A DNA stretch of 64,000 nucleotides from Chiloscyllium plagiosum (taxonomy: Eukaryota). Made by a program: the position numbers and the translations under genes. Positions 2,018-47,560 of the stretch are shown piece by piece. Each line of letters begins with the position of its first letter. Position 1 is the first letter of the stretch. Under the pieces are notes generated by a model. The model saw nothing but the letters and a program-made list of their open reading frames with translations, ran no database searches and was not told where the DNA came from. The stretch is from the NCBI RefSeq assembly GCF_004010195.1, contig NC_057719.1, positions 5,820,570-5,884,569 on the forward strand, given 5' to 3'.

Positions 2018-2599
2018 ATTTCATGTATATCGAGTCCTGATCATCCATTCTGTGCTTGGAGACATGCAGCATTCAGTCCAACCACACCTCATTTTATAAT
2101 CTGCAATTTTCCAATCCCTCCATGACCATCCTTGTGACTTCCTTCAGCCCTACAGAATAAACTGCTGCTTGGTGGGTGTGATTTCAGTTGCTGAGCTTGG
2201 AATTCCTCTCCAAAGTTCTATTTTTCCCTCTCGCTTCCTTTAAGATGATCCTTAAAACGTGCCTCATTGAAGCTTTTGGTTGTCTGTCATAATGTGTCTC
2301 CGTAAGTGACTCTGTATTAAATTTATTCGCACAATATCCCATGAAGCACTTTGGGATATTTTAAAACATTAGAGAGGTACAAATGAATACAGGTTTTATG
2401 TTGATTTGAAATCAAGACAAGAGCCAAGCAAGGATCATTATTTTTATCTGAGAAAGACATAGAAATGTACAGCACAGAAACAGACCCTTTGGTCCAACTC
2501 ATCCATGCCGACCAGTTGTCCTAACCTAATCTGGTCCCATGTAGAATTAGAATTCGAATTCCTACAGTGTGTGTCAGGGTTGTGTGTAGGTTTAGCTTA

Positions 2600-3265
2600 G
2601 ATTTAGTTTAGATTCCCTACAGTGTGGAGACAGGCTCTTTGGCCCAACAAGACCACACCGACTCTCCAAAGAGTAACCCACCCAGACCCATTCCTCTACC
2701 CTATATTTACCCCTGACTAATGCATGGTGGCTCAGTGGTTAGCACTGCAGCCTCACAGCGCCAGGGACCCGGGTTCGATTCCAGCCTCGGGCGATTGTTT
2801 GTGTGGAGTTTGCACATTCTCTCTCTATCCGCGTGGGTTTCCTCCGGGTGCTCCAGTTTCCTCCCACAGTCCAAAAATGTGCAGTTTAGGTGACTTGGTC
2901 ATGCTAAATTGCCCATAGTGTTAGGTGAAGGGGTAAATGTAGGGGAATGGGTCTGGGTGGGTTGCTCTTCGGAGGGTCGGTGTGGACTTGTTGGGCCGAA
3001 GAGCCTGTTTCCACACTGTAGGGAATCTAAACTAAATCTAAGCTAAACCTACACACAACCCTGACTATTGTGGGCAATTCAGCATGGCCAATTCACCTAA
3101 CTTGCTCATCTTTGGATTGTGGGTGGAAACCAGAGCACCCGGAGGAAACCCATGCAGACATGGGGAGAATGTGCAAATTCCACACAGTCGCCTGAGGCTG
3201 GAATTGAACCCAGGTCGGTGGTGCTGTGAAGCAGCAGTGCTAATCACTGAGCCACCATGCCGCCC
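2600..3265 (-). mobile_element. Antisense V-SINE (HE1-like), split by the + copy and itself inserted in a CR1 3' end (~2455-3354)
   Basis: Head at ~3265-3190 on the minus strand, body 3041-3190, tail 2600-2723. Confidence 0.85.
2724..3040 (+). mobile_element. V-SINE (HE1-like) inserted inside an antisense V-SINE
   Basis: A box tggctcagtgg, B box ggttcgattcc, V-domain gtgggtttcctccgggtgctccagtttcctcccacagtcc, CR1-like tail and (a)atcta repeats. Confidence 0.9.
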
Positions 3266-14426: not shown

Positions 14427-14779
14427 GGGTGGCACACAGTAGCTCATTGGCTAGCACTGCTGTCTCATAGCACCAAGGACCCAGGTTCAATTCCATCCTC
14501 AAGCGACTGTCTCTGTGGAGTTTGCACATTCTCCCTATGCCTGTGTGTGGTTTCCTTCAGATGCTCCAATTTCCTCCCACAGTCCAACGATGTGCAGTTT
14601 AGGTGGATTGGCCATGCTAAACTACAGGGGTGTGTAGGTTAGTTGGAATAGTCAGGGGAAATACAGAGGTACAGGGATAGTGGGGGAGGTGGGGGGGTTC
14701 TGGGTGGGATGCTCTGTGGAGGGTTGGCTTGGACTTGTTGGGCTGAATGGCCTGTTTCCACACTGTGGGGATTCTATGA
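14427..14779 (+). mobile_element. V-SINE (HE1-like)
   Basis: Full head-to-tail copy ending gattctatga. Confidence 0.85.
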
Positions 14780-16219: not shown

Positions 16220-16537
16220 GGCACGGTGGCTCAGTGGTTAGCACTGCTGCCTCACAGCGCCAAGACCCGGGTTCAATTCCCGCCTCAGGCGACTGACTGT
16301 GTGGAGTTTGCACATTCTCCCCGTGTCTGCGTGGGTTTCCTCCAGGTGCTCCGGTTTCCTCCCACAGTCCAAAAATGTGCAGGTTAGGTGAATTGGCCAT
16401 GCTAAATTGCCGTAGTGTTAGGTGAAGGGGTATATGTAGGAGAATGGGGTCTGGGTGGGTGCGCTTCGGCCGGTCGATGTGGACTTGTTGGGCCGCAGGG
16501 CCTGTTTCCACACTGTAACTAATCTAATCTAATCTAA
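16220..16537 (+). mobile_element. Young V-SINE (HE1-like)
   Basis: Intact A/B boxes, CpGs retained, (ctaat)n tail. Confidence 0.92.
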
Positions 16538-17130
16538 ATGTGGAATGATACTTAAGAAGCTGGGCTTGCCATCCTTAGATTGGAGATGATTAAGGAAAGG
16601 TTTAATACAGGTATTCAAAATCGTCAGTGGTTTTGATAAAGTAGGATCATTAATCTGACAGAGAAAACAAAGTTATGATTGGCAAAAGGATGAAGAGGCT
16701 GGATGAAGAGAAAATTGTTTTTATGCAGCAAATTCTGATCTGGAATGTGCTGTCTGCAGGAAGAAAATAACTGGCTTCCGTCAGCTGTCAGGTATTGTTA
16801 CTGCAAAGAGAGATCATCCTGGCCTCCCAACAGTCCAAAGGTTTTGTCCTTGTATCATTCACGTACACAAGCTGTTCAGGCACCCAGGAACCAATCAGAG
16901 TTTGTTGTCAGGCTGATGATCCTCTTTGGCATCCACACCTCATCACAATTTGCACAAACCAATCAGCTGTTTGTGGCTGGCCACATTTTGCTCTGCATGC
17001 AACCCATGGTGTTGGACCTACAAACAGCTTCCCCCACTACTTGAACAAAGCAGCAGTGTAAACATCACACACAACGTGTTTCAGTATCTTGTTTTAAAAA
17101 GTGCAACAGTGCCTTCCACAATCAAAAATA

Positions 17131-17486
17131 GGGTGGCACGGTGGCTCTGTGGTTACCACTGCTGCCTCACAGCACCAGGGACCTGGGTTCGATTCCAGCC
17201 TCAGGCAACTATCTGTGTGGAGTTTGCACGTTCTCCCCCTGTGTGCGTGGGTTTCGTCCGGGTGCTCTGGTTTCTTCCCACAGTCCAAAGATGTGCAGGT
17301 GAGGTGAATTGGCCATGTTAAATTATCCATAGTGTTCAGAGATGTGTAGGTTAGGTGCACTAGTCCGGGTAAATGTAGAGTAATAGCATAGGGGAATGGA
17401 TCCGGGTGGGTTACTCTTCAGAGGGTCAGTGTGGACTTATTGGGCCGAAGAGCCTGTTTCAACACTGTAGGGATTCTGTGATTCTA
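17131..17486 (+). mobile_element. V-SINE (HE1-like)
   Basis: Full-length copy ending gattctgtgattcta. Confidence 0.9.
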
Positions 17487-18774
17487 AGTGATGCATTATA
17501 TACAGAGTTAACAGAAAACTGTGATCAGGCACCCCAAAGAGCCCACCAATAGCAGTTTGGGGCAAGACAGATTCCATGGTTCCTCAGCAACTCATTCAGA
17601 TGGTAGTGACTGCATGGGCCATTGAATCTCATTACAACTTTGTTTCCTTTGCCTGGGATTCCAGTTCATTTTTTGAAGACTAATATTGGAACTCATTTAG
17701 AAATTGCTTGGTCTTGGACTGTCTCAGAACTGATCTAGTCTGCTCACACAAGACTTCCTTCTGCTAGATTCTTCAGGTGGCACTTCAATACCTACTCATG
17801 AGCACAATTCCAACTCTTATGCAGACAGCTACTTTTATTGAGCTGACAGTGCTCCTGGATTTCTCCAACCTCCAGTATTTCACAGCTTCACCAAATAAGT
17901 ATTACCTGTTGGCTTCCTTTAACCATGCTGTCAGCTAACAGATAGATCATAGGACTTCAGTGAGCCTTCAAAGTTAAACATAGCTCTTAACTGCACAGAG
18001 ATGACGTATTTGGCTGCCCCTATCTCTGTATCGCAGAGCTCGTGATCTTCCATTGCCTTCTCAGCTCCTCAGGATTCCTTGTGAACCCTGAGTGCCTGGA
18101 GCCTGCTAACTAAAGCATCTTTGCTGCTTACAGCTTTTTCTCCCTTTTTCTAACCTTAATTAACCAACAGGTGGAATTAGCAGCCAGTATCATCTCTAAG
18201 ATGTACAACTGAACAACCGCACAGAGGTTCCACACGTGATGCATTGCCTTCTGATTCCAAAACCACCTCTGCATACAGATCTGAGAAGTCTGTGCAATAG
18301 CAGGAAAATTGACAGGGAAACCTAGATAGCAACCTGCTACTGTCTCTGACCAGCTAACTGGATCCTTTGTACACCACTATCATAGGCAGGCACAGCTGCC
18401 TTTGCAACAACTGCCATAGCACCCATAATACTGTGCTGAAGTTTTGAAGCCTGGATTATTCTGTGCACACATCAGAACTCTTGCCTGGAAATCACTCTCT
18501 CAGAGGGACATGTATTCTGTGTTTCTTAACAAATAAAAATAATGTTAGAGGAACTGAGAATCAGTGAAGTGAAGAAGAGCTCATTGGGTTAGCACTAGAA
18601 TCTGATCCAAGTTTTGGGAAAACTGAAGTTTCTGAAATGTACGAAAGCAAATTGTGAAGTAATTTAAATCACTGTAATAGTTGTAGAGTAGCTTAGGCCA
18701 CCGACGCAATTAAGCCTATAGCAAGTTAAAAATCACACGACACCAGGTTATAGTCCAACAGGTTTAATTGGAAG

Positions 18775-18809
18775 CACTAGCTTTCGGAGCACCGCTCCTT
18801 CATCAGGTG
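18775..18809 (-). ncRNA. Mirror hammerhead motif (PLE family 2)
   Basis: Reverse strand reads CAC-CUGAUGA-A-GGAGC-ggu-GCUCC-GAAAG-CUA-GUG. Confidence 0.7.
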
Positions 18810-18818
18810 ATTGACAAT

Positions 18819-18853
18819 CACCTGATGAAGGAGCGGCGCTCCGAAAGCTAGTG
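18819..18853 (+). ncRNA. Minimal type I hammerhead ribozyme motif (PLE family 2)
   Basis: CAC-CUGAUGA-A-GGAGC-ggc-GCUCC-GAAAG-CUA^-GUG: 3-bp stem I, 5-bp stem II, palindromic AGCU stem III. Confidence 0.75.
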
Positions 18854-20934
18854 CTTCCAATTAAACCTGTTGGACTATAACCTGGTGTTGTGTGATTTTT
18901 AACTTTGTACACCCCAGTCCAACACCGGCACCTCCAACTCAAGCCTATAGCAGCCTTTTTTATTAATCAAGTAATCCTGTTCGTCCCGTTCTTCATCATG
19001 TCACTGCAGTTTTTCTTTGTATATTTGTCCAATTCCCTTATGATAGCCACAGAATTTGTACCCACTTCCCTAAATAGAATGCTTTGCAAATCCTTACCAC
19101 TCATATAATAAAAAACACTTTTTCCTCATTTTCTTTTCAATTTTTTGACATTTATCTTAAATATGAACTCTCTGGTCATAAATTCTTGGTCATTGAAAAT
19201 ATGATTTTAAAATACTTCTGTTGAATCTTCTCTTAGCCTTCCCTGTGCTAAGGAAAACCATCCCAGCTTCTCCAGTCTATCCAAATAACTATTAACACTC
19301 ATTCTTAGAACAAATTCCAGTAAATATCATTTGTATTGTCTTCAAAGTCTTCATGATTTTCCTACATTGAGACCTGAGGTGATAAAGGCATATGTAATGA
19401 TTTCAGTAGCGAAGAACAGGGGATGTTACAGAGAAGATGAATAGGCGAAGTTTTCTAGTGGAGAGAATCTAAGGTTCACCTTTGAGATGACCAGATGATG
19501 AAGTTGCTAACACTCTATTTTGAACCAAGAATATGGCAGAGTATGAAGAGCAGACCAGAAAATTGAAAAGGTACAGATTTTATGTTAGGCTCAAGAGCAA
19601 GGCTTTCATCTGAAGGCTTAGTGAGAAGTCACTCAAGTACTTATTTTTCAAGCAGCATTCACTGTCCAGTATCAAAGGCAAAGAATATTCACTAGTTGTC
19701 AATGCCTTTGGGATCATACCTCAGTTCCACTCATGACCTGAGTAGAGGGGAGAGATGAACGAATGGTGATTCTGACCATGTGAGCATAACCACCAGCAGA
19801 ATAGCAGGCTTTCAAACCTCTAATTGTGACCCAACCAAAATACAACAGAATTTAGCAGATTTATGTTTCCTAATACTTCCTGGAAGGTTTGGAATATTGC
19901 TGTTATAAATTTATTGACGCTTACTTTCTGGAGTGATCTGCAGGTGTAAAACAGAAGCTTTGTAAATTTCAGTTAGCTGATACAGACTCTACTGTCTGCT
20001 GTTATCTGGTGTCAGACAGTCTGGATTGGAGCAAGTGAAAAGGAGTAGAGTGCACAGCAGACTACAGGAAAGATCTCCAAATTTTCACTACAATCTGCAA
20101 AGGAGTGCTTCCTGACATCACCTGTCTGAACAGACTAGATCTAAGTTTAAACTTGTACCATCACCACACCTTGTTTTGCACTTGTCCACCAGATGAAGTA
20201 GATTCTCCTGTCTGTCCTTTCAACTCTTTGAACAACTTAAACACCTCAGTTAGCTTTCTCCTTAATTTCCTACATTCAGGAGAGTAGAAGCTCAGTCTTT
20301 GCCATAAGACCAGGGGAGCAGGATCTCCTTTCCCTTCCAGTGCTGAACAATTTTACAAAGCAAGAAGTTATGAAACATGGTTTCTGTGTCTGCACTGAGT
20401 GGTACATTTAAAAATTAGCTTGAATTGTCATTCTTCAGTACCTTGGACATTCTGCTGTTCAGGTTTATCCAGAACCAAAGCTTTTTATTCATGTGAGCAC
20501 AAATTGCAGTCATGTTGAAAAAGTTCTACTTCTGATGTATCTTCAAATAGCTACTGTCACAAAAGTCCTGAGGTAATCAGCCAAATCTCATGGATCAGAA
20601 AAGCAAATTTTCTTTGATGAAGAGTGTGGTTAAAATGCAAAATTCACTTCCTCACAGAATAGTTAAGGTGAATAGTATGAGAAGTCTGGATAATTATGTG
20701 AGGGAGAAAGGAATGGATGGATATTTTAACAGGTCAAGTGAATTAAAATGGGGGAAACTTTTATGGAATATATGGAATTTTAAAACCATTAGGCCAAATG
20801 ACCAGTTTCAGTTCTGTTAAGTCATTGTCAAATTGTTGCTATGCACTTTAATTCAAAGCACATAACATATTAAGTCTGAGGATGTAACTTACAGGTGCAG
20901 AACTGGTGTTTTCCTTGATGCACCATGTAACAGT

Positions 20935-22120
20935 TTATTTATTTATTTGTGTGACATGGGCATTGCTGGTTGCCCAGCATTTATTGACCATTCCTTGTGT
21001 CCTTGAGACGGTGGTGGTCAGCTGCCACCTTGAATTGCTGCAGCCCTGTGCTATAAGTTGATCGCAATGCCCTTAGGGAGGGAATTTCAGGATTTTTGAC
21101 CCAGTGACGTTGAAGGAATGGCAATATATTTCCAAGTCAGGATGGTGAGTGGAACTTGCAGGTGTTCCTGTGTATCTGTTGCCCTTGCCCTTCTAGAGGG
21201 AAGTGGTCATGGGTTTGGAAGGTGGTGTCTGATGAATCTTGGTGAATTTATGCAGTGCATCTTGTAGATAGTGCACACAGTTGCTACTGAAGGTCAGTGG
21301 TAGAGTGTGTTGATGCTTGGGATGTTGTGCCAATCAAGTGGTCTACTTTATCCTGGATGGTGTTAAACTTCTTTAGTGTTGTTGGAGCTGCACTTATCTA
21401 GGCAAGTGGGAAGTACTCTATCACATTGCTGACTTTTGCCTTGTAGATAGGCTTTGGGGAGTCAGGATGAGTTACTCGCCACAGTATTACTAGCCTCTGA
21501 TCTCCTTTTGTAATCATTGTGTTTTTGTGGCAAGTCCAGTTAAGTTTCAGGTCAGTGGTAACTCCCCCTCCACCCCTTCCAGCCCCAAAAAAAGAATATT
21601 GATAGCAGGGAATTCAGTGATGGTAGCAGTATGGAATGTCAGGTGGTTAGGTTGTCTCTTTTTCGAGATGATCATTGCCTGGCATTTGTGTGGCATGAAT
21701 GTTACTTACCACATGTCAGCCCAAGCTTGCTATTGACCACATCTAGTTGCATTTGAATATGGGCAGTTTCAGTATTTAAGGAGTCATGAATGAGCGCTGT
21801 GCAGTCACTGTCATGTGTGGGGCGTGGGGGGGATGGTGGGGCATCATTGCTGAAGCAACTGAAGATGTTTGGGTGTAGGCCCAGTACCCTGATGAACTCT
21901 TGCTGAAATAACTGACCTCTAACTACTGCAACCATCTTCCTATCTGTGAGGTATGGCTCCAACCAGTGGCGAGTTTGCCCTGTCTAGAATAGAAAATTTC
22001 AGTTTTGCTGGGGCTCCCCAATGCCACATTTGATCACTTTGATGTCAAGGGTTGTCACATTTATCTCATGTTGAGAATTGAGTTCTTTTGTCCATTATTG
22101 AACCAAGGCTATAATGAGGT
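20935..22120 (-). mobile_element. 3' part of a second CR1/L2-group LINE lineage (other copies 3855-4160 minus, 42090-42660 plus)
   Basis: Shared peptide across copies: AQVRNMMEYSSLAWMGAA..LD.IQDKAA..SL.H..SVAAVCTIYKMHCRNS. Exact clade not determined. Confidence 0.7.
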
Positions 22121-23027
22121 GTTACAGGTTCCTAATGAGAGAAAAGAAAACCCGTGCTGATTAAGAAATTGTAGGTGTCTGGGAAGTGAAAATCAGCCAG
22201 CACTCCTGCTGCAGGAGCATTCTTGCTTGCATATTTGGATGCTTGGTTGGGAAAGGCTATGATTTCATTTGCCCTGCCTTAGAAATGAAGACCACTGAGG
22301 TGAGTTACCCATGAAATACTTCAATATTTCAGAGTGGGAATTTGAAAGGAAAACAAGGTCTAAAGGACCAATTTTCTGGTGATATTAAAGAAACCTGTTT
22401 TAATGACAATAGATTTTTCTTGTTTGGCCACTATCTTGTTATATTCTTCCTAGAGTTTGTTTTTCAAGGATGACCAAAGCTTTCACTTGACTGGGGAATA
22501 TTAAACCTATTTTTCAGATTATTAACTACTTTATGGTGCATAAAATGGGCACAATTCTCACCAACATTTTCATTTAAATTTACAGCAGGAGAAACCTCAC
22601 CCTGACTTTTCTTTTCAAAATTCAGATTATTGCTTGGTAATACAGAGCTGAAGTCATGCTACTAAGGGACGCTAAGTTGATGCTTTTCATCCTTCACTGA
22701 TTAGGACTAAGATGCAGTAAAAAAAAATTGGATAGAGAGAACCAACTTATACAGCATGGGAAGAGAATGCTGATTTTTTGAGCCATGTTGGCATGGCCAT
22801 ACAGTAGGAACATTTAGTTGTCAATCTCTGCTGGAATAACTCAGGTCATGTGTGCTCTCTAAATTGGCACTTTCTTTCTAATTTTGGTTTCTTGCATGTC
22901 ACGATGAAAAACTTTAATGTCTCTTTAGCAATGCTTAAATTTCAAATTACAGTTTTAGACTTTTCTTGACCAATTTTAAAAACTGAAAAGCTGTTAATTG
23001 CATTATTATATCCTCTTAATATTCCAG

Positions 23028-23091
23028 CATTTTCTGCCCTCAAGAAAACACAGAAGAGGCTCTTCTGTTGCTGCTCATTAGTGAATCTATG
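23028..23091 (+). CDS. TTC7B: TTC7B internal exon C (64 nt): (S)IFCPQENTEEALLLLLISESM
   Basis: attccag acceptor; GTAAGT donor at 23092. The first base completes the split codon AG|C. Not in the ORF track; translated by hand. Confidence 0.95.
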
Positions 23092-24436
23092 GTAAGTGTG
23101 ATTACTTGACAACTGAGGCACAAGTTCACTGTGTTGACATTTAATGTAATTTTAATAGTCCCGATGGAAATGATCACTTAATGCTTGTGAAATAGGGATG
23201 CTATGAAGAAATAGCATGTTAATAAATTCTGACTGTTCACTTTGACAGGTGCATTGGACTGCGCAGTTACAGCAAAGAAAGAATTCTCTTTAACTGGGCA
23301 TTCTGAGCTCCCATCTGCATACAGAAAAGTGCCATTCAACCCAACAAATCCAATGCTGGTGATTACTCAGCATTCCAGTGCCAAACACAGTGAGCACTGC
23401 ACTGTCTGTCTGGATTGTAGGTCAAAGTCCCTGGCTCACAAGCAAGGATGCTGTCAATTGAGCTATGGCTAGCACTTCAGATTCACAAAATCTTTACAGC
23501 AGCGAATAACGTCATTTGGCCATTTGGTCTCTGCATCACCTGTCCAAATGAACATTGTGCTTTAGTGCCCATTCTTCTGCCTCCTTGGTGTAACTATACA
23601 CGTTGTTCCTTTTCAAATATTGAACTAATGAACTCCATCACTGATTCAGTGAGGTCAAGGCTGACTACAGTCCATTCTTCAATAATGCAATGGTTGTGTC
23701 CTACCCAGTGTTATAAAAAAATTATGCTTTAGAAAGAGCACTTAAAGTGTTGACTCTGTAATTATATTACAGTCAACACATGTATTAAAGGTTTGTGCAG
23801 TAAAACAGTGTCCCCAATTCGTCAATCATGTCGCATTGAATTCGCATTGACACAATGCGAGTTATAACAATGATTTGTGTTGTGTCCGTAAAGATCAGCA
23901 AGAGAACAGATTGACTCTAGGTAAATTTTAACCAGCTTACCTATATCTATATAAATTCAGTCAATGATCATGAGAAGATTTATTCACAAGTTACATATCA
24001 TTTTTACAAGTTTTAACATTCCAAATAAGATGAAGTACTTGCAAGTCAACCAAATTTGATTTGGTATAATAAGGACTATGTAGCAAAGTTCTTGAGCTTA
24101 ATTCTTCTAGGTTGAAACTACATTCCAGTTTCAATTTACTGTCTTAAAAATAATTTTTTAATCACAAATCACTCGAATAAATTCCCATGCAGCCACCCAT
24201 ATGGGCTAGACCTACTTAGTTACTCCAGCAATTTGTGTTTTTGTTTCAAATCTCCAACATCCGCAGTTGTTTTTTTTTAATTTAGTATATCATAACACGT
24301 CTGAACTGGTTGATTAGAAAATATCAATCACCTGCCTTACCAAAGGGCAAAGTGAGGTCTGCAGATGCTGGAGATCAAAGTTGAAACTTTATTGCTGGAA
24401 CAGCACAGCAGGTCAGGCAGCATCCAGGGAACAGGA

Positions 24437-24474
24437 GATTCGACGTTTCGGGCACAGGCCCTTCTTCAGGAAAC
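24437..24474 (-). ncRNA. Mirror hammerhead motif on the other arm of the palindrome
   Basis: Reverse strand reads GUUUC-CUGAAGA-A-GGGC-cugu-GCCC-GAAAC-GUC-GAAUC (one stem I mismatch). Confidence 0.65.
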
Positions 24475-24475
24475 T

Positions 24476-24513
24476 GATTCCTGAAGAAGGGCCTGTGCCC
24501 GAAACGTCGAATC
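24476..24513 (+). ncRNA. Minimal type I hammerhead ribozyme motif (PLE family 1)
   Basis: GAUUC-CUGAAGA-A-GGGC-cugu-GCCC-GAAAC-GUC^-GAAUC: perfect 5-bp stem I, full core, 4-bp stem II, palindromic ACGU stem III. Activity untested. Confidence 0.75.
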
Positions 24514-25195
24514 TCCTGTTCCCTGGATGCTGCCTGACCTGCTGTGCTGTTCCAGCAATAAAGTTTCAACTTACCAAAGGGCAAGATAGGTGACTAGTTT
24601 CCAAACTGAGAAACCAGGTTTCATCGACCTGTTGAGTTGAAGGAGGATGCTCTACAATTGTCCCAATTTGAGAGCTTTTGAAGGCACAGCTGGAAAGCAA
24701 ATGGCTGACCTCTGGAAGGTACCCACTTCTCTTGCCACCAACATCCTCACCCAGTGCCTCTCCCTGCCATGACCCCACCCTATGAAGAGAGCATAAAAGG
24801 AACTTGCCTTCTCACTGTTGGATCCTCCCCTCACCCTAATGAATAGGCCTCAGCCAGCAGATGAAAGGAGCCGCTTCTGGAGACCTAGGGTTGCCAGCAT
24901 TGAGGCCTCTGATTTTCTGAGAGACCTGTCAATGCTTTGCCTGTCAACTCTCAATGTTCACCAATTCTCAATTGTGAATTTTCTTGGCATTGGGAGTGAC
25001 GTGTTAGTGCATAAAGATATTGATTGACATTGGTAAAGGAACCTTCATTTTACAAGTTTTTTTTTCAATTTCTTAGTTTCCTTATTTCATTTCTGAGTTT
25101 TCCATTTCAACGTAAGCTTAATGGACTGATGTCATACTGTGTCCTCTTGTGTGATCTATGTTCTGTGTGATCTATGTGATCTGTGTCCTCTTGTG

Positions 25196-25808
25196 TTGAG
25201 TTGTTGACAGTGAGGAAGGATGTGTCAGGTTACAGCGGGATATAGATAAGTTGCAGAGCTGGGCGGAAAGGTGGCAAATGGAGTTCAATGTAGGTAAGTG
25301 TGAGGTGATTCACTTTGGTAAGAGTAACAAAAAGACGGGGTACTGGGCTAATGGTCGGATACTTGGTAGTGTGGATGAGCAGAGGGATCTTGGTGTCCAT
25401 GTACACAGATCTCTGAAAGTTGCCAGGTAAATAGTGCGGTGAAGAAGGCATATGGCGTACTGGCTTTTATTGGTAGAGGAATTGAGTTCCAGAGGGTTTA
25501 GATAGGGTTGACCGTGAGAACCTTTTTCCACGTATGGAGTTAGCTATTACGAGGGGGCATAGCTTTAAATTAAGGGGTGGTAGGTATAGGACAGATGTTA
25601 GGGGTAGATTCTTTACTCAGCGAGTCGTGAGTTCATGGAATGCCCTGCCAGTAGCAGTGGTGGACTCTCCCTCATTATGGGCATTTAAGCGGGCATTGGA
25701 TAGGCATATGGAGGATAGTGGGCTATTGTAGGTTAGGTGGGCTTGTATCGGCGCAACATCGAGGGCCAAAGGGCCTGTACTGCGCTGTATTTTTCTATGT
25801 TCTATGTT
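25196..25808 (+). mobile_element. CR1 3' fragment with an internal deletion
   Basis: LQRDIDKLQSWAERWQMEFN and TRGHSFKLRGGRYRTDVR; ttctatgttctatg tail. Confidence 0.9.
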
Positions 25809-26544
25809 ATAATACAGATAACCATGTTTATATCACATGGCATTCCTTTTCTCTTTCGAGGGCTATGATATAAAGTGACAACTCTCTTGCTTGTATTTCA
25901 TTATACACTGATCTAGTGTTTTATCTCTTTCTGCTGATGTCTTTTTACAGTCACCACAAGTAGAATTCAGAATGCCTCTTTGATTAACCTTCACTGTTTT
26001 AATGTCTGCAAGATGATCGAAGACACAAAAAAGTTCTGACTTAATGTACACATTTGCGCAAAATATGTATAGAGTTTAATTTGCTAAAGTTCTTGTTTTG
26101 GTCTATAATATTCTCTCTATCAGTGGACTATAGATCCTTGCTATACTGTATTGGTGCTTCAGTACACTTCCAGCAAGGTCTTGTGTCAGTGATTTTCCCA
26201 CACAGCCAGTTCTTGATCTAAGGGAAATGCTAAGCAAAGATTATGAATGCTCCACATAGGGAGCAAAATACTTGGTGGCTGAGGTATCTCAGAGCTCATT
26301 AGGCATCTTCTGAGGATTATGTATTGTCAGCCTGACAGGCCACCCTCCAGCTGTCATAAATGCATGGTCCTACAGAACTGGAAAAATGTGTGCAATCCTT
26401 AGAGCTATGTTAATTGGAAAAGGATTCTAAAACTACACACGTATATTGCTGTTAATCACCAACAGCAGCTTGCACTTTTATGCAGCCTTAGATGCTCCAA
26501 GGTGTTTCATAAGAATGTTATCAAGTAGAATCTTGAGGTATGTG

Positions 26545-26942
26545 GGACACGACTCGGAGTTTTAGAAAGATGAAGGGAATCTGATTGAAATTTACAGAAT
26601 ACCGAATAGCCTGGACAGTGGATGTTGGAAAAGTGTTTCCATTGGCAGGACAGACGAGGATCCGGGTGCACATTGTTAGAGTAAAAGAAAGACCTTCTAG
26701 AACAGAGGTAAGAAGAAACTTCTTCAGCCAGGAAGTAGTTAATCTGTGGAATTCATTGCCACAGAACGCTGGGGAGGCCAGGTCATTGAGTATATTTAAA
26801 ACAGTGATAGATAAGTTCTTGATTGCCAAGGGGATCAAAGGTAAATGGGGTTGGAAAAAATCTATCAGCTACGATTGAATGGCAGAGCAGACACGATGGG
26901 CCGAATGGCCTAATTTCTGCTCCTTTGTCCTATGGTCTTCTG
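26545..26942 (+). mobile_element. CR1 3' fragment
   Basis: RRNFFSQEVVNLWNSLPQ. Confidence 0.85.
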
Positions 26943-27479
26943 GTCTAATCTGACATTGAGCTGCATGAAACTCTGGAATAAATTATTATAGGTGAAAGAG
27001 GCAGAGAAATTCAGGGAGGGAAATTCTGTAGCTGAGAGCCACATGCAAGGCATGACTGCGAATGATGGAACAAGAGACAAAAATGAGAGCAACTGAGCAT
27101 TCTCAAAAGGGTTGTAAGCTTAGACAAGATGATGGAGATAAGATGGGTAAAGGCCATGGAAGAAATTGAACACATGGATAATGATTTCAAAATTGAATCG
27201 TTTTATTTCTGTATCTCAATCTCTGACTCTTGCACTCTTGTTTCTCAGTTTGTTTCTCTTAGTCACTGTTGCCACCACCCTTTTTTTTATTTGTTCACAG
27301 GCTGTAGGTATCGCTGACTAGGCAATTTATTGCCCGTCCCAAATTGCCCAGAGGGCGGTTAAAAATCAGTCACGCTGCTGTGGGTCTGGAGTCACATGGA
27401 GTCCAGACCAGTTCAGGATGACAGTATCCTTCTCTAAAGGACATTAGTGAACCACTTTGTGCACCCTGTAAGATGACTG

Positions 27480-27703
27480 CTGTGTAATCCCTCAACGTGT
27501 AAAGTCACCCAAGCAGACTATAGGGCTAATCTCTTAGCGAGAGAGAGAAATGACTGGTGGTGAGTTTAACCTGAGGGTCACCAAGTGGGGTCATGAAGTG
27601 TGACCTTCCCTTTTACCTCCCCCAGTGCGGTAATTGACCCCACCCTGTTGGCATCGCTCTGCAATGCAAATCAACTATCCAGCCACCTGAGCTAACTGAC
27701 CCC
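27480..27703 (-). mobile_element. tRNA-derived SINE of a different family
   Basis: Minus head ggggtcagttagctcaggtggctgga...ggggtcaattaccgc (A/B-box-like); body unrelated to the V-SINEs. Confidence 0.6.
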
Positions 27704-28489
27704 TGACTGATTAATTAGTTACATCTGTATAAATAGTCTTCAAATTTCTCTATTTGTTTTTATCTTATCTTGGAACTGAGCTCCTCTTTGCAGCTGAAGA
27801 GAATTTCTCGGATTCAGTTCCTGCTTTCATACTTTTAATCTATCAAAAAACACAGAGCACTAATGAGCAGTTCCTACACATTATTCCTTGTTTCTACTTG
27901 TTAAAAACAAAGCATGCGGATTTTTCCAGTGTGTTATAGCTTTAGTATGGATCAGAAGAAGTCCCGATGTAAATACCCGAGTTGAAACTGTGATCAGTTA
28001 AAATATTATGGGGAGTACACATATTGTCATGATGCAGGTTGTGATTTTTTTGTCTGCCTGTTAGCTGCCTGATAGTATGCAGACCCTATTTGGGCCCTCG
28101 AAATTTACACAACTACCTTCTTAGTTACCTCCTTATTACTCAATGCTGTCCAGAGATAATGCAGTCCCATGTAAATGAGGCCTGAAAGTCATCAGGGTCC
28201 CTTCCTGGAAGTTGACTAGACCTATTTCTTTGTAACTATCCTGATCTATTATGAAATACTGAGTATTTCTCCCACACAGATTGTTTAGAAAGAACGTTTT
28301 TGAGCTGCACGCTGTTTCACTTCACCTGCTCATGATTGTCTTGTTTTCAGCTATTTGTTCACAGAAAGATGATGCAATGTATTTTCTTTGTTTTTAATGA
28401 ACACAGTCACCTTTAATCCTCTGAGAACATGCTAGTGGCTCACTAAGTAAAAGGAGCATCTAGTTAGTATTGAGCCAAGATCAAAAGAT

Positions 28490-28708
28490 TCTGGTTTCCT
28501 CCCACAGTCCAAAAATGTACAGGTTAGTAAGATTGATAATTGTAAATTCCCTGTAGTGTCCAGGGATGTGCAGACTTAAGTGGGTTAAACATGGTAAATG
28601 TAGGGTTACAGGAATAGGGTGGTGGGGAGGGGTGTTGGGTCTATGTGGGATGTTCTTCAGAGGTTCGGTGTAGATTGCAATCCCCACACTAAGGATTCCT
28701 GATTCTAT
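28490..28708 (+). mobile_element. 5'-truncated V-SINE
   Basis: Begins at ctggtttcctcccacagtcc. Confidence 0.8.
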
Positions 28709-29124
28709 CTTTTTTTAGCACAACCTGCCATCTTTTCCTCATGCATCCTCCTGGCTTTTCTTATTCTGCGGTTTGCATCATTTACCTGCTATTACTTCCT
28801 TACTTTCTCATCAGTATCCTTAGTCATCTAGGGTAAAGAGTGCTGTAACTTCTAATATCGTATTCATTTCTCATGGGTATGTAGATTTGCCCACTATTCA
28901 TTTCTCTTTATAAAGTCTCTCATTTTCTATCCACTGTTCCATCCACCAAAATGGGTTTCTGGTCAACCTGCTGCAGGCCAACTTTTAGACCCCTAGTCTG
29001 GGATCTTAATCCTTATCTGATTTTTATCCTTTTCCACTTCATATTGAACCTTATTGTAATATGGTCGCTATTTCCCAAATGCTCCCCCACTTTTTTTTGC
29101 TGTTCTCTTAATGTTTCTTCCCAG

Positions 29125-29577
29125 CCTCAGTGTGGATGTGGTGAGGTGCCGCAGGCAGCTCTCAGCACGGTCCCTTGGTGGCTCGTGGCATTGTCTCAGC
29201 TAGGTGTGCGATCAGGTCCTGCCTGGGAATGTTCCAGAGGCATGGGGGAAGATTTGGGAGAGCGAACGGTGAGGAAGATCCCCCAGTATCTGCAGCGATG
29301 GCTTCCAGTGTAGGCAGCTTATAAGTTTATTCCTTTATTTTTCTAGTTTATATTAAGAAGGACTTTAATGTTAACTCTTACATTATTTCTTTATTTTTCT
29401 ACTTCTATTAAGGTAATGCTTAACTTTTCAATTCTGTTTCTCTTCATACTTTGTACCTGAGTTTAATGTACCTAGACATCCTTTGTACCTAAGATTGGGC
29501 CATGAGACGTTACATTAGACACTTTTCACTGTACTCCTGTGCTTGAGTGCACGTGACAACAAAATCTAAATCTAATC
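29125..29577 (+). mobile_element. Non-autonomous element with a Rex1/Babar-type 3' tail
   Basis: GC-rich head, AT-rich middle, tail cttttcactgta...cacgtgacaacaaaatctaaatctaa. Confidence 0.55.
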
Positions 29578-29909
29578 CAACATCACAAGCTTTCCCAGAG
29601 TCTATGCCATCTTTACTGGTCAAAATGATGCACACTGCTGAGACTCTAAGCTACAAATAAATTTTCGAAGAGCTCTCCTCTCTTTGTTTTTTGGTTCGAG
29701 GAGCAGGGAGGGAGGGAAACACTACATGGTTGGGGCATCCCTATTCTTTAACACTGGGTCTTTCATGATCCACTTTGTAATTGTGGTGAGTGAGCCATCT
29801 TTTCCAAGAATCCCCCTGTCGCTTCTCACTACTGCCCTCTGTGCACCTCAGTGCAGTAAAGCAAGACTTCTGTTGTGTTTTGAACTTGTGTGTGCGGTCC
29901 TTTTAATGT

Positions 29910-30516
29910 GATTTATTATTGTCACATGTACCGAAATACAATGAAAAGTATTATTTTGCATCCTAACCAGACAAATTGTACCTTATGTAAGTACGTCAGG
30001 TTAATAGAACAGAATGCAGAATACAGTGCTAGAGCTACATATATTTAAGATCAACTTTAAATGTACGAGAATTCTGTTCATAAGTCTGATTACAGTCGGA
30101 AAGAAGCTGTTGTTAAATCCCTTGGTAGGTGACTTCAACTTGTGTATCTTCTGCCTGATGGAAGAGAGCATAAGCAGGATGTGAGTGGGCTTTTATTACA
30201 TTGGCTACTTTCCTGAGGAAGCAGGAATCAGTGGAAGTCTGGTTTTTGTGATGGATTGGACTGCATTCACTGTAATTTCTTGTGGTCTTGTGCAGAGTCA
30301 TTGTTGTATCACGCTGTGATACATCTAGATAGGGTGCCTTCTGTGGTGCATCTATAAAAATTTATAAGAGTCATTGTGGACATCCTGAATTTCCTTAGTC
30401 TTCTGAGGAAGTAGAGGCAATTGGTGTGCTTTCTTGACTGTAGTGTCAACGTGGATGGACCAGCACAGATTTTTGTTCATGTTTACTCCTAAGCATTTGA
30501 AGCTCTTGAACATCTC
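29910..30516 (-). mobile_element. Rex1/Babar-like LINE 3' part (resumes at 31742-31854 and probably ~33600-33890)
   Basis: Minus peptide FKCLGVNMNKNLCWSIHVDTTVKKAHQ and HSHPAYALF; 3' tail gtacatgtgacaataataaat. Confidence 0.65.
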
Positions 30517-31741
30517 AAGATACCTCATGATCCTTATTGAGTTCTTTAAGAAGGCGACCAAACAGGTGGATGAGAGTAAAGTGGTTGATGTGGTGTATAT
30601 GGATTTCAGTAAGGTGTTTGGTAGAGTTTCCCATGGTAGGCCATTGCACAAAATTAGGAGGCATGGGGTTTAGTGGTTTGGATCAGAAATTGGCTAGCTG
30701 AAATAAGGTAGAGGATAGTGGTTGATGGGAAATGTTCATCCTGGAATTCAGTAACTAGTGGGGTACCGCAAGGATCTGTTTTGGGTGTACTGTTGTTTGT
30801 CATTTTTATTAATGACCTGGATGAGGGCATAGAAGGATGGATTAGTAAATTTGCAGATGATACTAATGTCAGTAGAGTTGTGGGTGGTGATGAAGGATGT
30901 TGTAGGTTACAGAGAGACATTGGTAAGCTGCAGAGCTGGGCTGAGTTGAGAGGTGACAAATGGAGTTTAATGCAGAAACGTGTGAGGTGATTCACTTTGG
31001 AAGGAGTAACAGAAATGTGGAGCACCTGGCTAATAGTAAGATTCAGCAGGGAGGTCTTGGTGTCCAGGTACATGGATCCTTGAAAATTCCCACCCAGGTT
31101 GATAGGGTTGTTAAGAAGGCATACGGTGTGTTAGTTTTTATTGGGAGAGGGATTGAGTTTTGGAACCATGAGATCATGCTGCAGCTGTATAAAACTCTGG
31201 TGCAGCCACATTTGGATTATTGTGTACAGTTCTAGTCACGTATTATAGGAAAGATGTGGAAGCTTTGGAAAGGGTTCAGAAGAGACTTACTAGGATGTTG
31301 CCTGGTATGGAGGGAAGGTCATATGAGGAAAGGCTGAGGGACTTGAGGCTGTTTTCGTTAGAGAGAAGGTGGTTGAGAGGTGAGTTAATTGAGACATATA
31401 GAAAATTAACAGAGGGTTAGATAGGGTGGACAGGGAGAGCCTTTTTCCAAGAATGGTGACGGTGAGCACGAGGGGGCATAGCTTTAAATTGAGGGGTGAT
31501 AGATATAGGACAGATGTCAGAGGTAGTTTCTTTCCTCAGAGAGTAGTAGGGGCGTGGAATGCACTGCCTGCAACAGTAGTAGATTCGCCAACTTTATGGC
31601 CATTTAAATGGTCATTGGATAGGCATATGGACGAGAATGAAATAGTGTAGGTTAGATGGGCTTCAGACTGGTTTCACAGGTCGGCGCAGCATCAAGGGCC
31701 GAAGGGCATGCACTGCGCTGTAATGTTCTATGTTCTATCTC
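30517..31741 (+). mobile_element. CR1 (HER1-like) LINE 3' fragment nested in the Rex1-like LINE
   Basis: RT motifs VDVVYMDFSKVF, GVPQGSVLG, SKFADDT; tail gttctatgttcta; atctc repeated at both junctions. Confidence 0.92.
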
Positions 31742-31854
31742 TACTCAGCACCATTGATACAGGCAGTGGCATGACCTCCATTCCACTTCCTAAATTCGAT
31801 GACCAATTCCTTTGTTTTGCTGATGTTGAGGAAGAGATTGTTGTCTTTACACCA

Positions 31855-32354
31855 NNNNNNNNNNNNNNNNNNNNNNNNNNNNNNNNNNNNNNNNNNNNNN
31901 NNNNNNNNNNNNNNNNNNNNNNNNNNNNNNNNNNNNNNNNNNNNNNNNNNNNNNNNNNNNNNNNNNNNNNNNNNNNNNNNNNNNNNNNNNNNNNNNNNNN
32001 NNNNNNNNNNNNNNNNNNNNNNNNNNNNNNNNNNNNNNNNNNNNNNNNNNNNNNNNNNNNNNNNNNNNNNNNNNNNNNNNNNNNNNNNNNNNNNNNNNNN
32101 NNNNNNNNNNNNNNNNNNNNNNNNNNNNNNNNNNNNNNNNNNNNNNNNNNNNNNNNNNNNNNNNNNNNNNNNNNNNNNNNNNNNNNNNNNNNNNNNNNNN
32201 NNNNNNNNNNNNNNNNNNNNNNNNNNNNNNNNNNNNNNNNNNNNNNNNNNNNNNNNNNNNNNNNNNNNNNNNNNNNNNNNNNNNNNNNNNNNNNNNNNNN
32301 NNNNNNNNNNNNNNNNNNNNNNNNNNNNNNNNNNNNNNNNNNNNNNNNNNNNNN
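31855..32354. other. Assembly gap (500 N)
   Basis: N run. Confidence 1.
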
Positions 32355-33582
32355 CAACACCTTGTACAATTGCAGCAGAACCGCCTTGCTCTTAAATTCA
32401 ATCCCTCCAGCAATGAAAGCTCATATTCCGTTTACCTTCCAGATTACCTGTTTACCTGGAAATCAACTTTTAGCAGTTCATGCACGAGCACTCTTAAGTC
32501 CCTCTGCACAACAGCATGCTGCAATCTTTCACCATTTCAATAATACTCTGGCCTATTATATTTACTTCCTGGATAATCTCACATTTACCAACATTGTACT
32601 TCATCTGCCAGACCCTTGCTCACTCACCCAACCTATCCAAATTTCTCTGCAGACCCTCCATATCCTCTGCACAGTTTGCCTTTCCACTCGATTTAGTGTC
32701 ATCAGCAAACATGGATACGTTACACTCAGCCTGCTCTTCCAAATCATTTATAGAAATCATGAACAGTTATGGACCTAACACCGACCCTTGCAGTATCCCG
32801 CTCACCAGTGATCTCCACTCAGAGGATCACCCATTAATCTGAGTTCTCTGCTTTCTATTGGCTAACCAGTCCTCTATCCATGCTAATACATTCCCCACAA
32901 CTCCATGCATTCTTACCTTATGGATGAGTCTTTTATTTGGCACGTTATTGAACGCCTTCTGAAAATCCAAGTATACAACATCTACCTGTTCCCCTCTCCA
33001 TCCAACGCTCTTGTTACATTTTCAAAGAACTCCAGTACCTTTCTCAAACACAACCTTCCCTTCCTGAATCCATACTGCGTCTGTGGGATGGTACCCATTT
33101 TATCCAGATGTCTCACTATTTCTTCTTTAATGATAGCCTCCAGCATTTTCCCGACTGCAGATGTTCAGCCAACTGGCCCATAGTTAACCGCCTTTTGCCT
33201 ACATCCTTTTTTAAACAGCAGTGTGACATTCACTGTCTTCCAGTCCACTGGGACCTGTTTGGAGTCCAGTGAATTTTGGTACATTACCACCAATCCATCT
33301 ACTATAACTTCTGCCATTTCTTTCAACACCCTGGGATGCATTCCATCAGGACTAGGGGACTTATCTATCTTTAGACCCTCACATTTGCTCAAAATTACCC
33401 CTTTAGTGATAACAATTGTTAAGAATCGTATCCTTAATATCAATCTTTGGCATGTTAGACATATCTTCCACTGTGTAGTCTGACGCAAAATAGTTATTCA
33501 AGGCCTCGGCTGTTTTAGTACTACCTGATATTAATTCCCCTTTCTCAACCTGCAAGGGACATATGTCCACTTTAGCCACCCT
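32355..33582 (-). mobile_element. CR1 ORF2 fragment
   Basis: KSPSPDGMHPRVLKEMA, DWKTVNVTLLFKKG and downstream RT motifs. Confidence 0.88.
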
Positions 33583-33920
33583 GGTGGTCTGACCAATTGC
33601 AGCTAGAACATGAAGCCTTGCAGTTGTCCTTAAAAATAAGAAAGGCTATCTTCTTAATATGTTCTGAAGGGGGTTTAATCTGGTCCTTGTTGCTTGTGTT
33701 GAAGAGTATTATGGATGTGGTGTTATCGCTTATCCTTACTGATTACAATCAGTGGGTAAGGAAGTCAAGGATCCATTTGCAGATCAGGAAGCAGAGTTCT
33801 TGTTCGCAGAGTTTGGAGATTAGTTTTCTTGGAATTATGGTGTTGAAGGTGGAGCCCAAGTCAATAAATAGGTGGTGGTGTTATCCAGATGTTTTACTTC
33901 ACTGTGTCATTTTATTCCAG

Positions 33921-34058
33921 GCTAACAGGGATGCAGTGCTTAGCCGGATCCCAGAACACAACAACGATCGCATTATCAGTTTACAGAGTGCCTCCATTGT
34001 CTACGATCTTCTAACAATCGCACTAGGAAGGCGTGGTCAATATGAAATGCTGTCTGAG
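33921..34058 (+). CDS. TTC7B: TTC7B internal exon D (138 nt): ANRDAVLSRIPEH...ALGRRGQYEMLSE
   Basis: ttttattccag acceptor; GTGAGT donor at 34059; phase 0/0. Confidence 0.96.
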
Positions 34059-34261: not shown

Positions 34262-34367
34262 GGAGAAAGTGAGGTCTGCAGATGCTGGAGATCAAAGTTG
34301 AAACTTTATTGCTGGAACAGCACAGCAGGTCAGGCAGCATCCAGGGAACAGGAGATTCGACGTTTCG
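34262..34367 (-). mobile_element. Young PLE family 1 terminus inserted in CR1
   Basis: 34266-34367 is identical over 102 nt to 24349-24450; truncated inside the hammerhead. Confidence 0.85.
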
Positions 34368-34909
34368 AGCAAAATTCTTAAGAGGTCTAGACAGGGTAGA
34401 TGTGGAAAGTTTGTTTTCCCCATGTGGGAAAGTATAGGATTAGAGGGTATAATCTTGAACAAGGGCTCACAGAGATGAGGAGGAATTTCTTCTCTAAGGG
34501 TAATGAATCTGGAATTCTGTACTACTGAAGCCAGGACATGAAGTGTATTGAAGGATGAGATCAGCCATGAGTGGGCTGAATGGCCTACTTCTGCCCCTAT
34601 ATCTTATGATCTTAAGACAAGTTATTGGAAAGTCAGATCATTGCGGGCATACCTTTTGCCCAACATTGCACCAGCTGAATATGACCAATTCTGCATTTGC
34701 TTCGTATTGCACAAAATGGTGACATTTTAGCAGTTTTGAATTTTTTCATTCGTTCATAGGATGTGGGCATTCATTGCCATCTGTATTTCCCAGAGAACAG
34801 TTAAGGGTCAACCACATTACTGTGGGTCTGGAAAACATGTAGGCCAGGTCAGGTAAGAATGGTAGATTTCCTTCCCTAAAGAATCTTTACTGAAGATTCC
34901 TGATGAAAG

Positions 34910-39618: not shown

Positions 39619-39835
39619 GACAAAAACTGAAATTGCTGGATAAACTCAGCAGGTCTGGCAGCACATGTGAAGAGAAAGCAGGAGTAATGTTTCAAGTCCA
39701 GTGATTCTTCTTCAGCACTGGACACGAGACTCAAAACAATAATTCTGCTTTCTTTCCACAGATGCTGCCAGACCAGCTGAGTTTCTCCAGCAAGTTCTTA
39801 TTTGTGTTTCAGATCTTCAGCACCTGCAGTTCTTT
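39619..39835. mobile_element. Old fold-back element, probable PLE family 3
   Basis: Arms ttgctggataaactcagcaggtctggcagca / tgctgccagaccagctgagtttctccagcaa. Minus strand has a decayed core CUGAAGA-A-GAAUC-acug-GACUU-GAAAC. Related fragments at ~633-714, 24220-24270, 42775-42870, 51580-51650 and 63030-63085. Confidence 0.65.
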
Positions 39836-45436: not shown

Positions 45437-45759
45437 ATGTGTCAAAAAATGTGGCACTGGAAAAGCACAGCAGGTCAGGCAGCATCCAAGGAGCAGGAGA
45501 ATCAAAATTTCGGGCATAAGCCCTTCATCAGGAATTCCTGTGCGCTCTCGGCCTGTCATGCTGCTTAAGAATTTTCAATATTTCAACATGATTATTTTTC
45601 ATTCTTCTTAACCCCAGAGAATAGAGGGCTATTCTAGATGAAGACCTTAGACCCGAAGCGTCGATTCCCCTGTCCTTGGATGCTGCCTGACCTGATGTGC
45701 TTTTCCAGCACCAAACTCTTTGACTCTGATCGCCAGCATCTGCAGTCCTCACTTTACTC
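45437..45759. mobile_element. Fold-back PLE family 1 element with a ~90-nt foreign spacer
   Basis: Inverted arms ~45445-45538 and ~45632-45759; TSD CTGGGAG(T/C)AGAAC at 45424-45436 and 45760-45772. Confidence 0.8.
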
Positions 45760-46850: not shown

Positions 46851-47068
46851 TCATTCTCCCCGTGTCTGCGTGGGTTTCCTCCGGGTGCTCTGGTTTCCTC
46901 CCACAGTCCAAAGATGTGCAGGTTAGGTGAATTGGCCATTCTAAGTTGCCCGTAGTGTTAGGTGAAGGGGTAAATGTGGGGGAATGGGTCTGGGTGGGTT
47001 GCTCTTCAGAGGGTCGGTGTGGACTTGTTGGGCTGAAGGGCCTGTTTCCACACTGTAAGTAATCTAAT
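46851..47068 (+). mobile_element. 5'-truncated young V-SINE nested in CR1
   Basis: V-domain through the gtaagtaatctaatc tail. Confidence 0.88.
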
Positions 47069-47560
47069 CCTCAAGAACTTTTACTGAAGTAACATCAGCT
47101 ACTTCACTTGGGAAGGAATTCCATAGATTTACAACCCTCTGGGTGAAGAAGTTCCTTCTCAATTCAATCCTAAATCTGCTCTCTCTAATCTTGAGGCTAT
47201 GCCCCCTTGTCCTAGCTTCACCTACCAGTGGAAACAACCTCTCTACTTCTATCTTATCTATTCTGTTCATAATTTTATAAGTTTCTCTAAGATCCCCCTC
47301 ATTCTTCTGAATTGTAATGAATATAATCCCAGTCTACTCAGTCTCTCCTCATAGGCCAACGCCCTCAACTCCGGAATCAATCTAGTGAACCTCCTCTGCA
47401 CCCTCTCTAGTGCCAGTACATCCTTTCTCAAGAGACCAAAACTGCATACACTACTCCAGGTGTGCCCTCACCAGCACCCTATACAGCTGCAACATAACCT
47501 CCTTGTTTTTAAACTCAATCCGTTTAGCAATGAAGGGCAAAATTCCATTTGCCTTCATAA

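What the first reader, a model, noticed from the sequence alone, without database searches (positions are those of the whole stretch)
24476..24513. Intact minimal hammerhead ribozyme in the sense strand of a TTC7B intron
Seen: GAUUC CUGAAGA A GGGC cugu GCCC GAAAC GUC^ GAAUC. This gives a complete CUGANGA/GAAA/NUH core, a perfect 5-bp stem I, a 4-bp stem II, an extra A between A9 and G10.1, and no stem III loop. Known: Penelope-like elements carry minimal type I hammerheads whose palindromic stem III is thought to require dimerisation. Inference: this motif is transcribed within TTC7B pre-mRNA and could cleave after C24508 if paired with a second copy through ACGU.
Basis: partly seen in the sequence, partly recalled or inferred. 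Interest (0 to 1): 0.75.

Follow-up and report, generated by a model that had tools for sequence, protein, structure and literature searches.

The report
Penelope palindrome burying its own hammerhead
The hammerhead motif is real, but it is one of over 12,000 identical copies carried by a young Penelope-type jumping gene; here it sits in a recent mirror-image insertion, missing from other individuals, whose RNA is predicted to zip the ribozyme shut, so it likely does not cut the TTC7B transcript.

Summary
The motif is confirmed letter for letter, on the sense strand of a TTC7B intron. It is not a gene-specific ribozyme. It is the front of the right arm of a 224-bp head-to-head Penelope-like element (PLE) insertion with 95-bp perfect arms, a 29-bp tail on one arm and a 15-bp target duplication. 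The exact 33-nt core has 12,020 genomic copies. The parent encodes RT, a Zn-finger-like linker and GIY-YIG (Neptune-like). The empty site is present in all 4 DNA runs laid (three other samples of the species, one relative). In the pre-mRNA the antisense arm is made first and is predicted to pair the whole motif; forcing the hammerhead fold costs 61 kcal/mol. The fifth stem I pair is a junction accident. Old copies lose core CpGs like neutral DNA. Side result: 47 of 50 palindromes join one long and one short arm, none long+long or short+short, and most arms start at the ribozyme's 5' edge, not its cut site. This favours priming from both target nicks at two fixed RT start sites on uncleaved RNA. 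The layout is published, and this scan has noted these shark palindromes many times (155 notes). Ordinary; interest 0.22.

The parts
24336..24350 (.). Left copy of the 15-bp target-site duplication (CTTACCAAAGGGCAA); its last 2 bases overlap the long arm (microhomology)
   Evidence: empty-site joint 24335>24570 with 15 shared letters in 4 of 4 runs
24349..24472 (-). Long arm: PLE leader/pLTR from 3 nt before the ribozyme core to the far (tail) end
   Evidence: 100% identical over 124 nt to the unit behind the RT-GIY-YIG ORF in L137
24349..24377 (-). Tail: part of the long arm with no partner in the short arm (family tail about 35 nt, between the two 3' end classes)
24437..24472 (-). Second minimal hammerhead, antisense to TTC7B, stem I 3 bp
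24473..24477 (.). Palindrome centre (ACTGA); G24476 is not in the parent element and supplies the fifth stem I pair
   Evidence: centres differ among copies
24477..24572 (+). Short arm: same leader from 4 nt before the core to the near 3' end class
24476..24513 (+). The reported minimal type I hammerhead; predicted cut between 24508 and 24509
   Evidence: predicted sequestered in context
24557..24562 (+). AATAAA in the short arm, sense to TTC7B; possible intronic polyadenylation signal, untested at this locus
   Evidence: sequence; A-rich loose read ends just behind the same motif in family reads
24570..24584 (.). Right copy of the target-site duplication; its first 3 bases overlap the short arm
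23028..23091 (+). TTC7B exon upstream of the host intron
   Evidence: AG/GT borders; fills the gap between the two exons matched
33921..34055 (+). TTC7B exon downstream of the host intron (3' end not mapped)

Best explanation
The motif is the hammerhead of a young Neptune-like Penelope retrotransposon, left in a TTC7B intron as one arm of a recent, polymorphic, head-to-head insertion that is predicted to pair the ribozyme into a 95-bp hairpin, so it is likely an inert passenger here. Shown: identity with the parent's leader, copy number, target duplication, empty alleles, and strict long+short arm pairing. Inferred mechanism: the element's protein nicks both target strands about 14-15 bp apart. 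Each 3' end primes reverse transcription at one of two fixed internal start sites about 35 nt apart on a transcript whose 5' end lies about 4 nt before the ribozyme core. Both cDNAs run off that 5' end through an uncleaved ribozyme and are joined head to head, often through microhomology. The ribozyme is maintained in the active lineage, where it likely acts on tandem transcripts or with protein help, and decays in dispersed copies.
For: Parent: ORF L137:3290-5536 has RVT_1 (E 1.2e-8, above cutoff), a C-x4-C-x2-C linker and GIY-YIG (27.5 bits, above cutoff), followed by a unit identical to the long arm. 12,020 exact 33-mers, control 0. All 25 distinct best-matching loci are long+short palindromes; most have their own 12-17 bp duplication, and centres vary. 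48 of 49 palindromes have an 11-17 bp flanking direct repeat. Empty site in 4 of 4 runs. Hairpin -211.7 kcal/mol, z -24.6; hammerhead fold +61 kcal/mol. 3' ends bimodal at +89 to +91 and +124 to +126, matching the two RT start sites and tail shown in vitro for a lizard PLE whose protein cuts and extends both strands (PMC11167929). 47 of 50 pairs long+short, 3 long+shorter, 0 long+long, 0 short+short, 0 tail-to-tail. In 7 of 47 the short arm keeps 50 nt or more that the long arm lacks, so it cannot be a copy of it. 5' ends: 70 of 97 within 0-7 nt before the core; in a sample anchored downstream of the ribozyme, 14 of 30 there and 1 of 30 at the cut site.
Against: No cleavage assay or transcript of this allele was seen; sequestration rests on equilibrium folding. 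The transcript start at the ribozyme's edge is inferred from insertion ends only, and RNA reads showed no start or end pile-up (387 reads). One-sided deletions at palindrome centres after insertion could mimic the arm asymmetry. 'Neptune' rests on the linker motif, not a tree; GIY-YIG in the L137 copy scored just under the Pfam cutoff (21.5 vs 22.6). Eight palindromes genome-wide have both arms starting exactly at the cut site, a weak hint that cleaved RNA is sometimes used.
Confidence: 0.82

Rival explanations
1. The motif is an active intronic ribozyme that cuts TTC7B pre-mRNA after pairing with a second copy through ACGU.
For: Intact core and 5-bp stem I in isolation. Dimeric PLE hammerheads cleave weakly in vitro (PMC4209133). 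The family is abundant in RNA, so partners exist in trans.
Against: The antisense arm is transcribed first and is predicted to bury the motif. The ACGU self-duplex is only -3.1 kcal/mol. No tandem sense partner in the intron. Insertion absent from alleles in 4 of 4 other runs. The lizard PLE hammerhead did not cleave without the element's protein (PMC11167929).
Confidence: 0.03
2. Same element, but the mirror arm is made by self-priming: one cDNA, or an antisense template, folds back and copies itself (model in PMC3846280).
For: Many centres look like fold-backs through short repeats (overlaps of 3 or 11 nt recur; GAAA loops). The arms here are 100% identical.
Against: Solo copies end at the short site as well as the long one (24 short, 15 long of 39 unpaired hits), so the short end is a start site of its own. 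In 19 of 47 pairs the short arm is complete while the long one is cut back, against 5 the other way. Neither arm is then a copy of the other unless deletions followed.
Confidence: 0.2
3. The 224-bp palindrome is itself a mobile unit (SINE- or MITE-like) copied whole from a master locus.
For: Best matches are 96-100% identical over the whole 224 bp. The centre seen here recurs in 4 other loci among the 25 best matches.
Against: Centres and arm lengths vary widely among 50 young pairs. The best-match sample was selected for likeness to this copy. Solo arms and longer copies form a continuum up to full ORFs.
Confidence: 0.06
4. The insertion matters to TTC7B, but through its 95-bp double-stranded stem (editing, splicing) or its sense AATAAA (early polyadenylation), not through catalysis.
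For: Perfect hairpin 1.25 kb from the 5' splice site. 33 family reads have A-rich loose ends just behind the AATAAA.
Against: No read evidence for this allele. The AATAAA would itself be inside the stem. The A-rich ends may come from one other locus or from genomic A-runs (agreement 0.62). A>G differences in reads cannot be told from copy variants.
Confidence: 0.08

Closest known systems
Minimal type I hammerheads of metazoan PLEs (Cervera and De la Pena 2014, PMC4209133; Lunse et al. 2017, seen only as a title and in a review's summary)
   Same: CUGANGA and GAAA core, extra nucleotide between A9 and G10.1, G10.1-C11.1 pair, palindromic loopless stem III, short stem I, location in the pLTR, most copies dispersed and truncated.
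   Different: Stem II is 4 bp rather than the 7-8 bp of Schistosoma motifs. This copy is locked against its own antisense. Cleavage not tested here.
EN+ PLE insertions with inverted pLTR, one-sided 30-40 bp tail and TSD (Adineta Pen2a, PMC3846280; Fig. 2 legend of PMC8557442)
   Same: Head-to-head inverted pLTRs, tail at one end only, flanking duplication.
   Different: No ORF between the repeats: the insertion is reduced to two leaders of about 95 and 125 bp. Duplications are 11-17 bp rather than 8-10. The family is very abundant: 50 young pairs in the sampled loci alone.
Poseidon of Anolis carolinensis (PAc; Frangieh et al. 2024, PMC11167929)
   Same: Two fixed 3' end classes separated by the tail, downstream of the hammerhead; uncleaved RNA is the main template.
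   Different: Here the ORF start lies behind the tail (ATG at +162), not in stem II. The protein has a Zn-finger-like linker. The strict long+short pairing is not described in the text I read (supplement not seen).
Non-LTR retrozymes (bioRxiv 10.64898/2026.07.22.740005)
   Same: Short non-coding, PLE-derived units with type I hammerheads. Tandem 320-nt deletion derivatives of this family exist elsewhere.
   Different: This locus is inverted, not tandem, so it cannot give the same-strand dimer that defines an active retrozyme there.

Membership tests
PLE minimal type I hammerhead | Conserved core C3-U4-G5-A6-N7-G8-A9, G12-A13-A14 and NUH cut site | tested here: met
PLE minimal type I hammerhead | Stems I and II, extra nucleotide after A9, palindromic loopless stem III | tested here: met
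   native stem I is 4 bp
PLE minimal type I hammerhead | Located in the pLTR of a PLE | tested here: met
   identical unit behind RT-GIY-YIG ORFs
PLE minimal type I hammerhead | Self-cleavage as a dimer or with protein help | not testable with these tools
   no assay; genomic footprint of cleaved RNA inconclusive; no read-end pile-up
PLE minimal type I hammerhead | Core conserved more than flanks across the family | tested here: inconclusive
   subfamily differences fall at N7, loop II, stem I and flank and not in the core, but dispersed old copies lose core CpGs at about 20%
EN+ Penelope-like element | Single ORF with RT and C-terminal GIY-YIG | tested here: met
   parent copies, not the window locus
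EN+ Penelope-like element | Inverted pLTR, one-sided tail, target duplication | tested here: met
Neptune clade | [quoted passage not shown] | tested here: met
   C-x4-C-x2-C before the endonuclease; shared with Nematis per that paper
Neptune clade | Phylogenetic placement of the RT | not tested
   no tree built
Non-LTR retrozyme | Two or more tandem same-strand units with hammerheads | tested here: not met
   arms are inverted; no tandem partner
Domesticated intronic ribozyme of a host gene | Fixed and conserved at the orthologous site | tested here: not met
   empty site in three other samples of the species and in a relative

The most novel reading that the evidence does not exclude
PLE inverted ends are made by obligate asymmetric twin priming. 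One RT-endonuclease dimer on a short leader RNA assigns the two internal start sites one to each nicked target strand, so every palindrome is long+short, and both cDNAs end at a transcript start just before an uncleaved hammerhead. A small minority may use ribozyme-cut RNA, which would be a genomic record of PLE hammerhead cleavage in vivo.
Probability: 0.6. Interest if true: 0.5.

Novelty: new member of a known kind. Interest (0 to 1): 0.22.

Why it matters
As a ribozyme in TTC7B it does not matter: it is a recent repeat copy, predicted to be silenced by its own mirror image. The family is useful as a dataset. How PLEs make inverted ends with a one-sided tail is described as unresolved (PMC8557442), and thousands of near-identical young insertions let the twin-priming and self-priming models be told apart by counting arm ends. 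The element also looks recently active, so it is a candidate for in vitro reconstitution and a source of insertion markers.

Tried and rejected
Rfam scan of 22000-27000: no hammerhead family, only three chance-level hits. Cap-derived extra G before the 5' end: 7 G, 10 A, 4 T among 21 copies ending 4 nt before the core, not supported. Two same-strand copies 2.6 kb apart on C1 did not bracket an ORF. Footprint of ribozyme-cut RNA: junction-type patterns gave 111 starts at the cut site against 18, 27 and 28 at neighbouring bases. But 7 of the 12 loci inspected are joins through the stem I complementarity to the partner arm, and most others are also ambiguous by microhomology; two of the three controls used pyrimidine junction bases while the test used purines. 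I reject this excess as evidence. 8 of 15 palindromes start both arms exactly at the cut site; the shifted controls (60 and 93 loci, 50 listed each) show 0 and 1-3 exact double starts among those listed, read by eye. Inconclusive. RNA: no RNA holder listed for the window stretch; run X22 gave 0 reads; X21 gave 387 family reads with no start or end pile-up. The first descriptor script had a greedy-match bug, rerun. Lunse et al. 2017 is not held. Literature searches for twin priming in PLEs or for shark PLE hammerheads found nothing relevant by title or abstract; subscription papers and Repbase reports are not covered.

Full report
Observation. The 38 bases at 24476-24513 are exactly as described. 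They fold with stems I and II in isolation. The host gene is TTC7B on the + strand: two exons match human TTC7B chains at E 4e-24 and 6e-21, and the exon between them lies at 23028-23091. The motif is in intron 23092-33920, in sense. The genome is 3.56 Gb. That it is a shark rests on repeat families I recall and on earlier scan notes, not on a test of mine.

What surrounds it. The motif opens the right arm of a perfect 95-bp inverted repeat (24378-24472 / 24478-24572). The left arm runs 29 bp further, to 24349. A 15-bp direct repeat flanks the whole. Laid on four DNA runs (three other samples labelled as the same species, one relative), each shows a contig that joins 24335 to 24570, skipping 234 bases with those 15 letters shared. 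The insertion is therefore polymorphic or private. Contigs show that the empty allele is present; they cannot show that the filled one is absent.

Family and parent. The exact 33-nt core occurs 6032 + 5988 times, control 0. All 25 distinct best-matching loci are long+short palindromes, most with their own 12-17 bp duplication, and centres vary. A fetched copy carried GIY-YIG. Searching with it led to ORFs of 534-893 aa with RT motifs in 7 of 14 fetched regions. L137:3290-5536 has RVT_1 above cutoff and GIY-YIG just under it, a C-x4-C-x2-C linker, and a downstream unit identical to the window's long arm over 124 nt. The linker fits Neptune or Nematis (PMC8557442, passages); no tree was built. 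In tandem junctions the ORF's ATG lies 162 nt after the first core base, so the unit is the element's leader. The parent has C where the window has G24476, so the fifth stem I pair comes from the junction.

Can it cut TTC7B RNA? Probably not. The region folds as a 95-bp hairpin (-211.7 kcal/mol, z -24.6). Forcing the hammerhead costs 61 kcal/mol. Because the antisense arm is transcribed first, the hairpin dominates at all six transcript lengths tried (equilibrium prediction). The ACGU duplex is worth -3.1 kcal/mol. The nearest other descriptor-positive sense copy is at 48724. Published PLE hammerheads cleave weakly even as dimers (PMC4209133, parts 1-2 of 4 read). The lizard one needs the element's protein, and uncleaved RNA is its main template (PMC11167929, parts 1-2 of 4 and passages; supplements not seen).

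Conservation test. Of 357 copies anchored downstream of the ribozyme, 287 retained the ribozyme region (the other 70 were dropped); 163 were classed young and 124 old. In the old set the majority-base frequency was 0.91 in the core and 0.90 in the 3' flank (0.94 and 0.90 without CpG sites). Core CpG bases were lost at about 20%, equally on both sides of a CpG (C to T 20, G12 to A 23). 43 of 124 old and 123 of 163 young copies keep an intact core. Subfamily differences fall at N7, loop II, stem I and the flank. Other families in the same DNA keep the core with different stems. So selection acts on the active lineage, and dispersed copies decay.

How the palindrome arises. 3' ends fall in two classes, +89 to +91 and +124 to +126 from the first core base, like the two RT start sites and tail of PAc. 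Among 50 young head-to-head pairs, 47 are long+short, 3 long+shorter, none long+long or short+short, and none is tail-to-tail. Fourteen came from a sample anchored on short ends. Among the other 36, 33 are long+short; independent choice would give at most one half (my arithmetic: 0.5^33, about 1e-10). The long arm is cut back with the short arm whole in 19 pairs, the reverse in 5. In 7 the short arm holds 50 nt or more that the long arm lacks, and in L175 the long arm stops where the short one ends. 5' ends cluster 0-7 nt before the core in 70 of 97 copies selected on the core. In 30 copies anchored downstream, 14 start there, 7 further up, 9 inside the ribozyme, and 1 of those 9 at the cut site. 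The cluster sits on a TCATTC that resembles an initiator consensus (recalled). I infer priming from both nicks at two fixed sites on a short uncleaved transcript, run-off at its 5' end, and end joining. Self-priming (PMC3846280, passages and Discussion read) remains the rival, since centre deletions could mimic the asymmetry.

Is cleaved RNA ever used? Eight palindromes start both arms exactly at the cut site. Single-arm starts there outnumber neighbours 111 to 18, 27 and 28, but 7 of 12 inspected loci are joins through stem I microhomology. This is inconclusive. Single-cell RNA reads (387 in one run, 0 in the other) showed no end pile-up; 33 had A-rich loose ends behind the AATAAA.

Comparison and novelty. 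Minimal PLE hammerheads, dual motifs on opposite strands, and inverted pLTRs with a one-sided tail and duplication are all published (PMC4209133, PMC3846280, PMC8557442; PMC8969392 and PMC6765202, passages; PMC2377424, abstract and one section; the retrozyme preprint, part 1 of 5 and passages). I found no paper on strict long+short pairing or twin priming in PLEs, within a library that lacks most subscription papers. The scan's index holds 155 notes with these words in at least 16 genomes, several with the same twin-priming reading. I had recorded that reading before looking, and the notes are not independent support. Verdict: a real motif, an ordinary member of a known kind, likely inert at this site. 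Interest 0.22; the mechanistic side result would merit about 0.5 if confirmed.

Noticed in passing
L071:2029-2475; L161; L062:1297-1937: Tandem, internally deleted derivatives of the element (about 225-320 nt units: ribozyme, tail, ORF start, jump back to the 3' UTR), retrozyme-like and able to give same-strand dimers. RNA-type contigs of two species show a related joint (L071 2279 back to 2024 with 6 letters between), a unit of about 262 nt that may be tandem or circular.
   Followed up: partly
window 24557-24562; L071:2105-2119: The young subfamily has an AATAAA that older window copies lack; 33 single-cell reads have A-rich loose ends about 10 nt behind it.
   Followed up: partly
window 24511: The young subfamily has A where most older copies have T (98 of 121), turning a U-U mismatch in stem I into a pair.
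   Followed up: partly
window 45457-45755, 50917-51117, 60488-60677: Three older head-to-head pairs of the same family, each with a shorter left and a tail-bearing right arm; cores damaged.
   Followed up: partly
window 34266-34371: Young minus-strand copy, 99% identical to the long arm, truncated inside stem II.
   Followed up: no
window 39632-39793: Diverged inverted pair of another hammerhead-bearing family with a different stem II.
   Followed up: no
window 18723-18905: Near-perfect palindrome, 91-nt arms, 98% complementary, 1-nt centre; not matched by this element's unit.
   Followed up: no
window 2573-3187, 14434-14775, 16220-17477, 46852-47847, 57819-58139: Abundant SINE-like family with inverted and nested copies; resembles shark SINEs as I recall, not tested.
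   Followed up: no
L038/L039, L051, L100, L127, L128: Longer head-to-head pairs with near-identical arm spacing (286-291 nt) at separate loci; possibly segmental copies or a recurrent join.
   Followed up: no
window 23886-24176: The assembly differs from three other runs, including the relative, at several shared bases and a 6-nt indel at 23911, so the insertion sits on a distinct haplotype.
   Followed up: no
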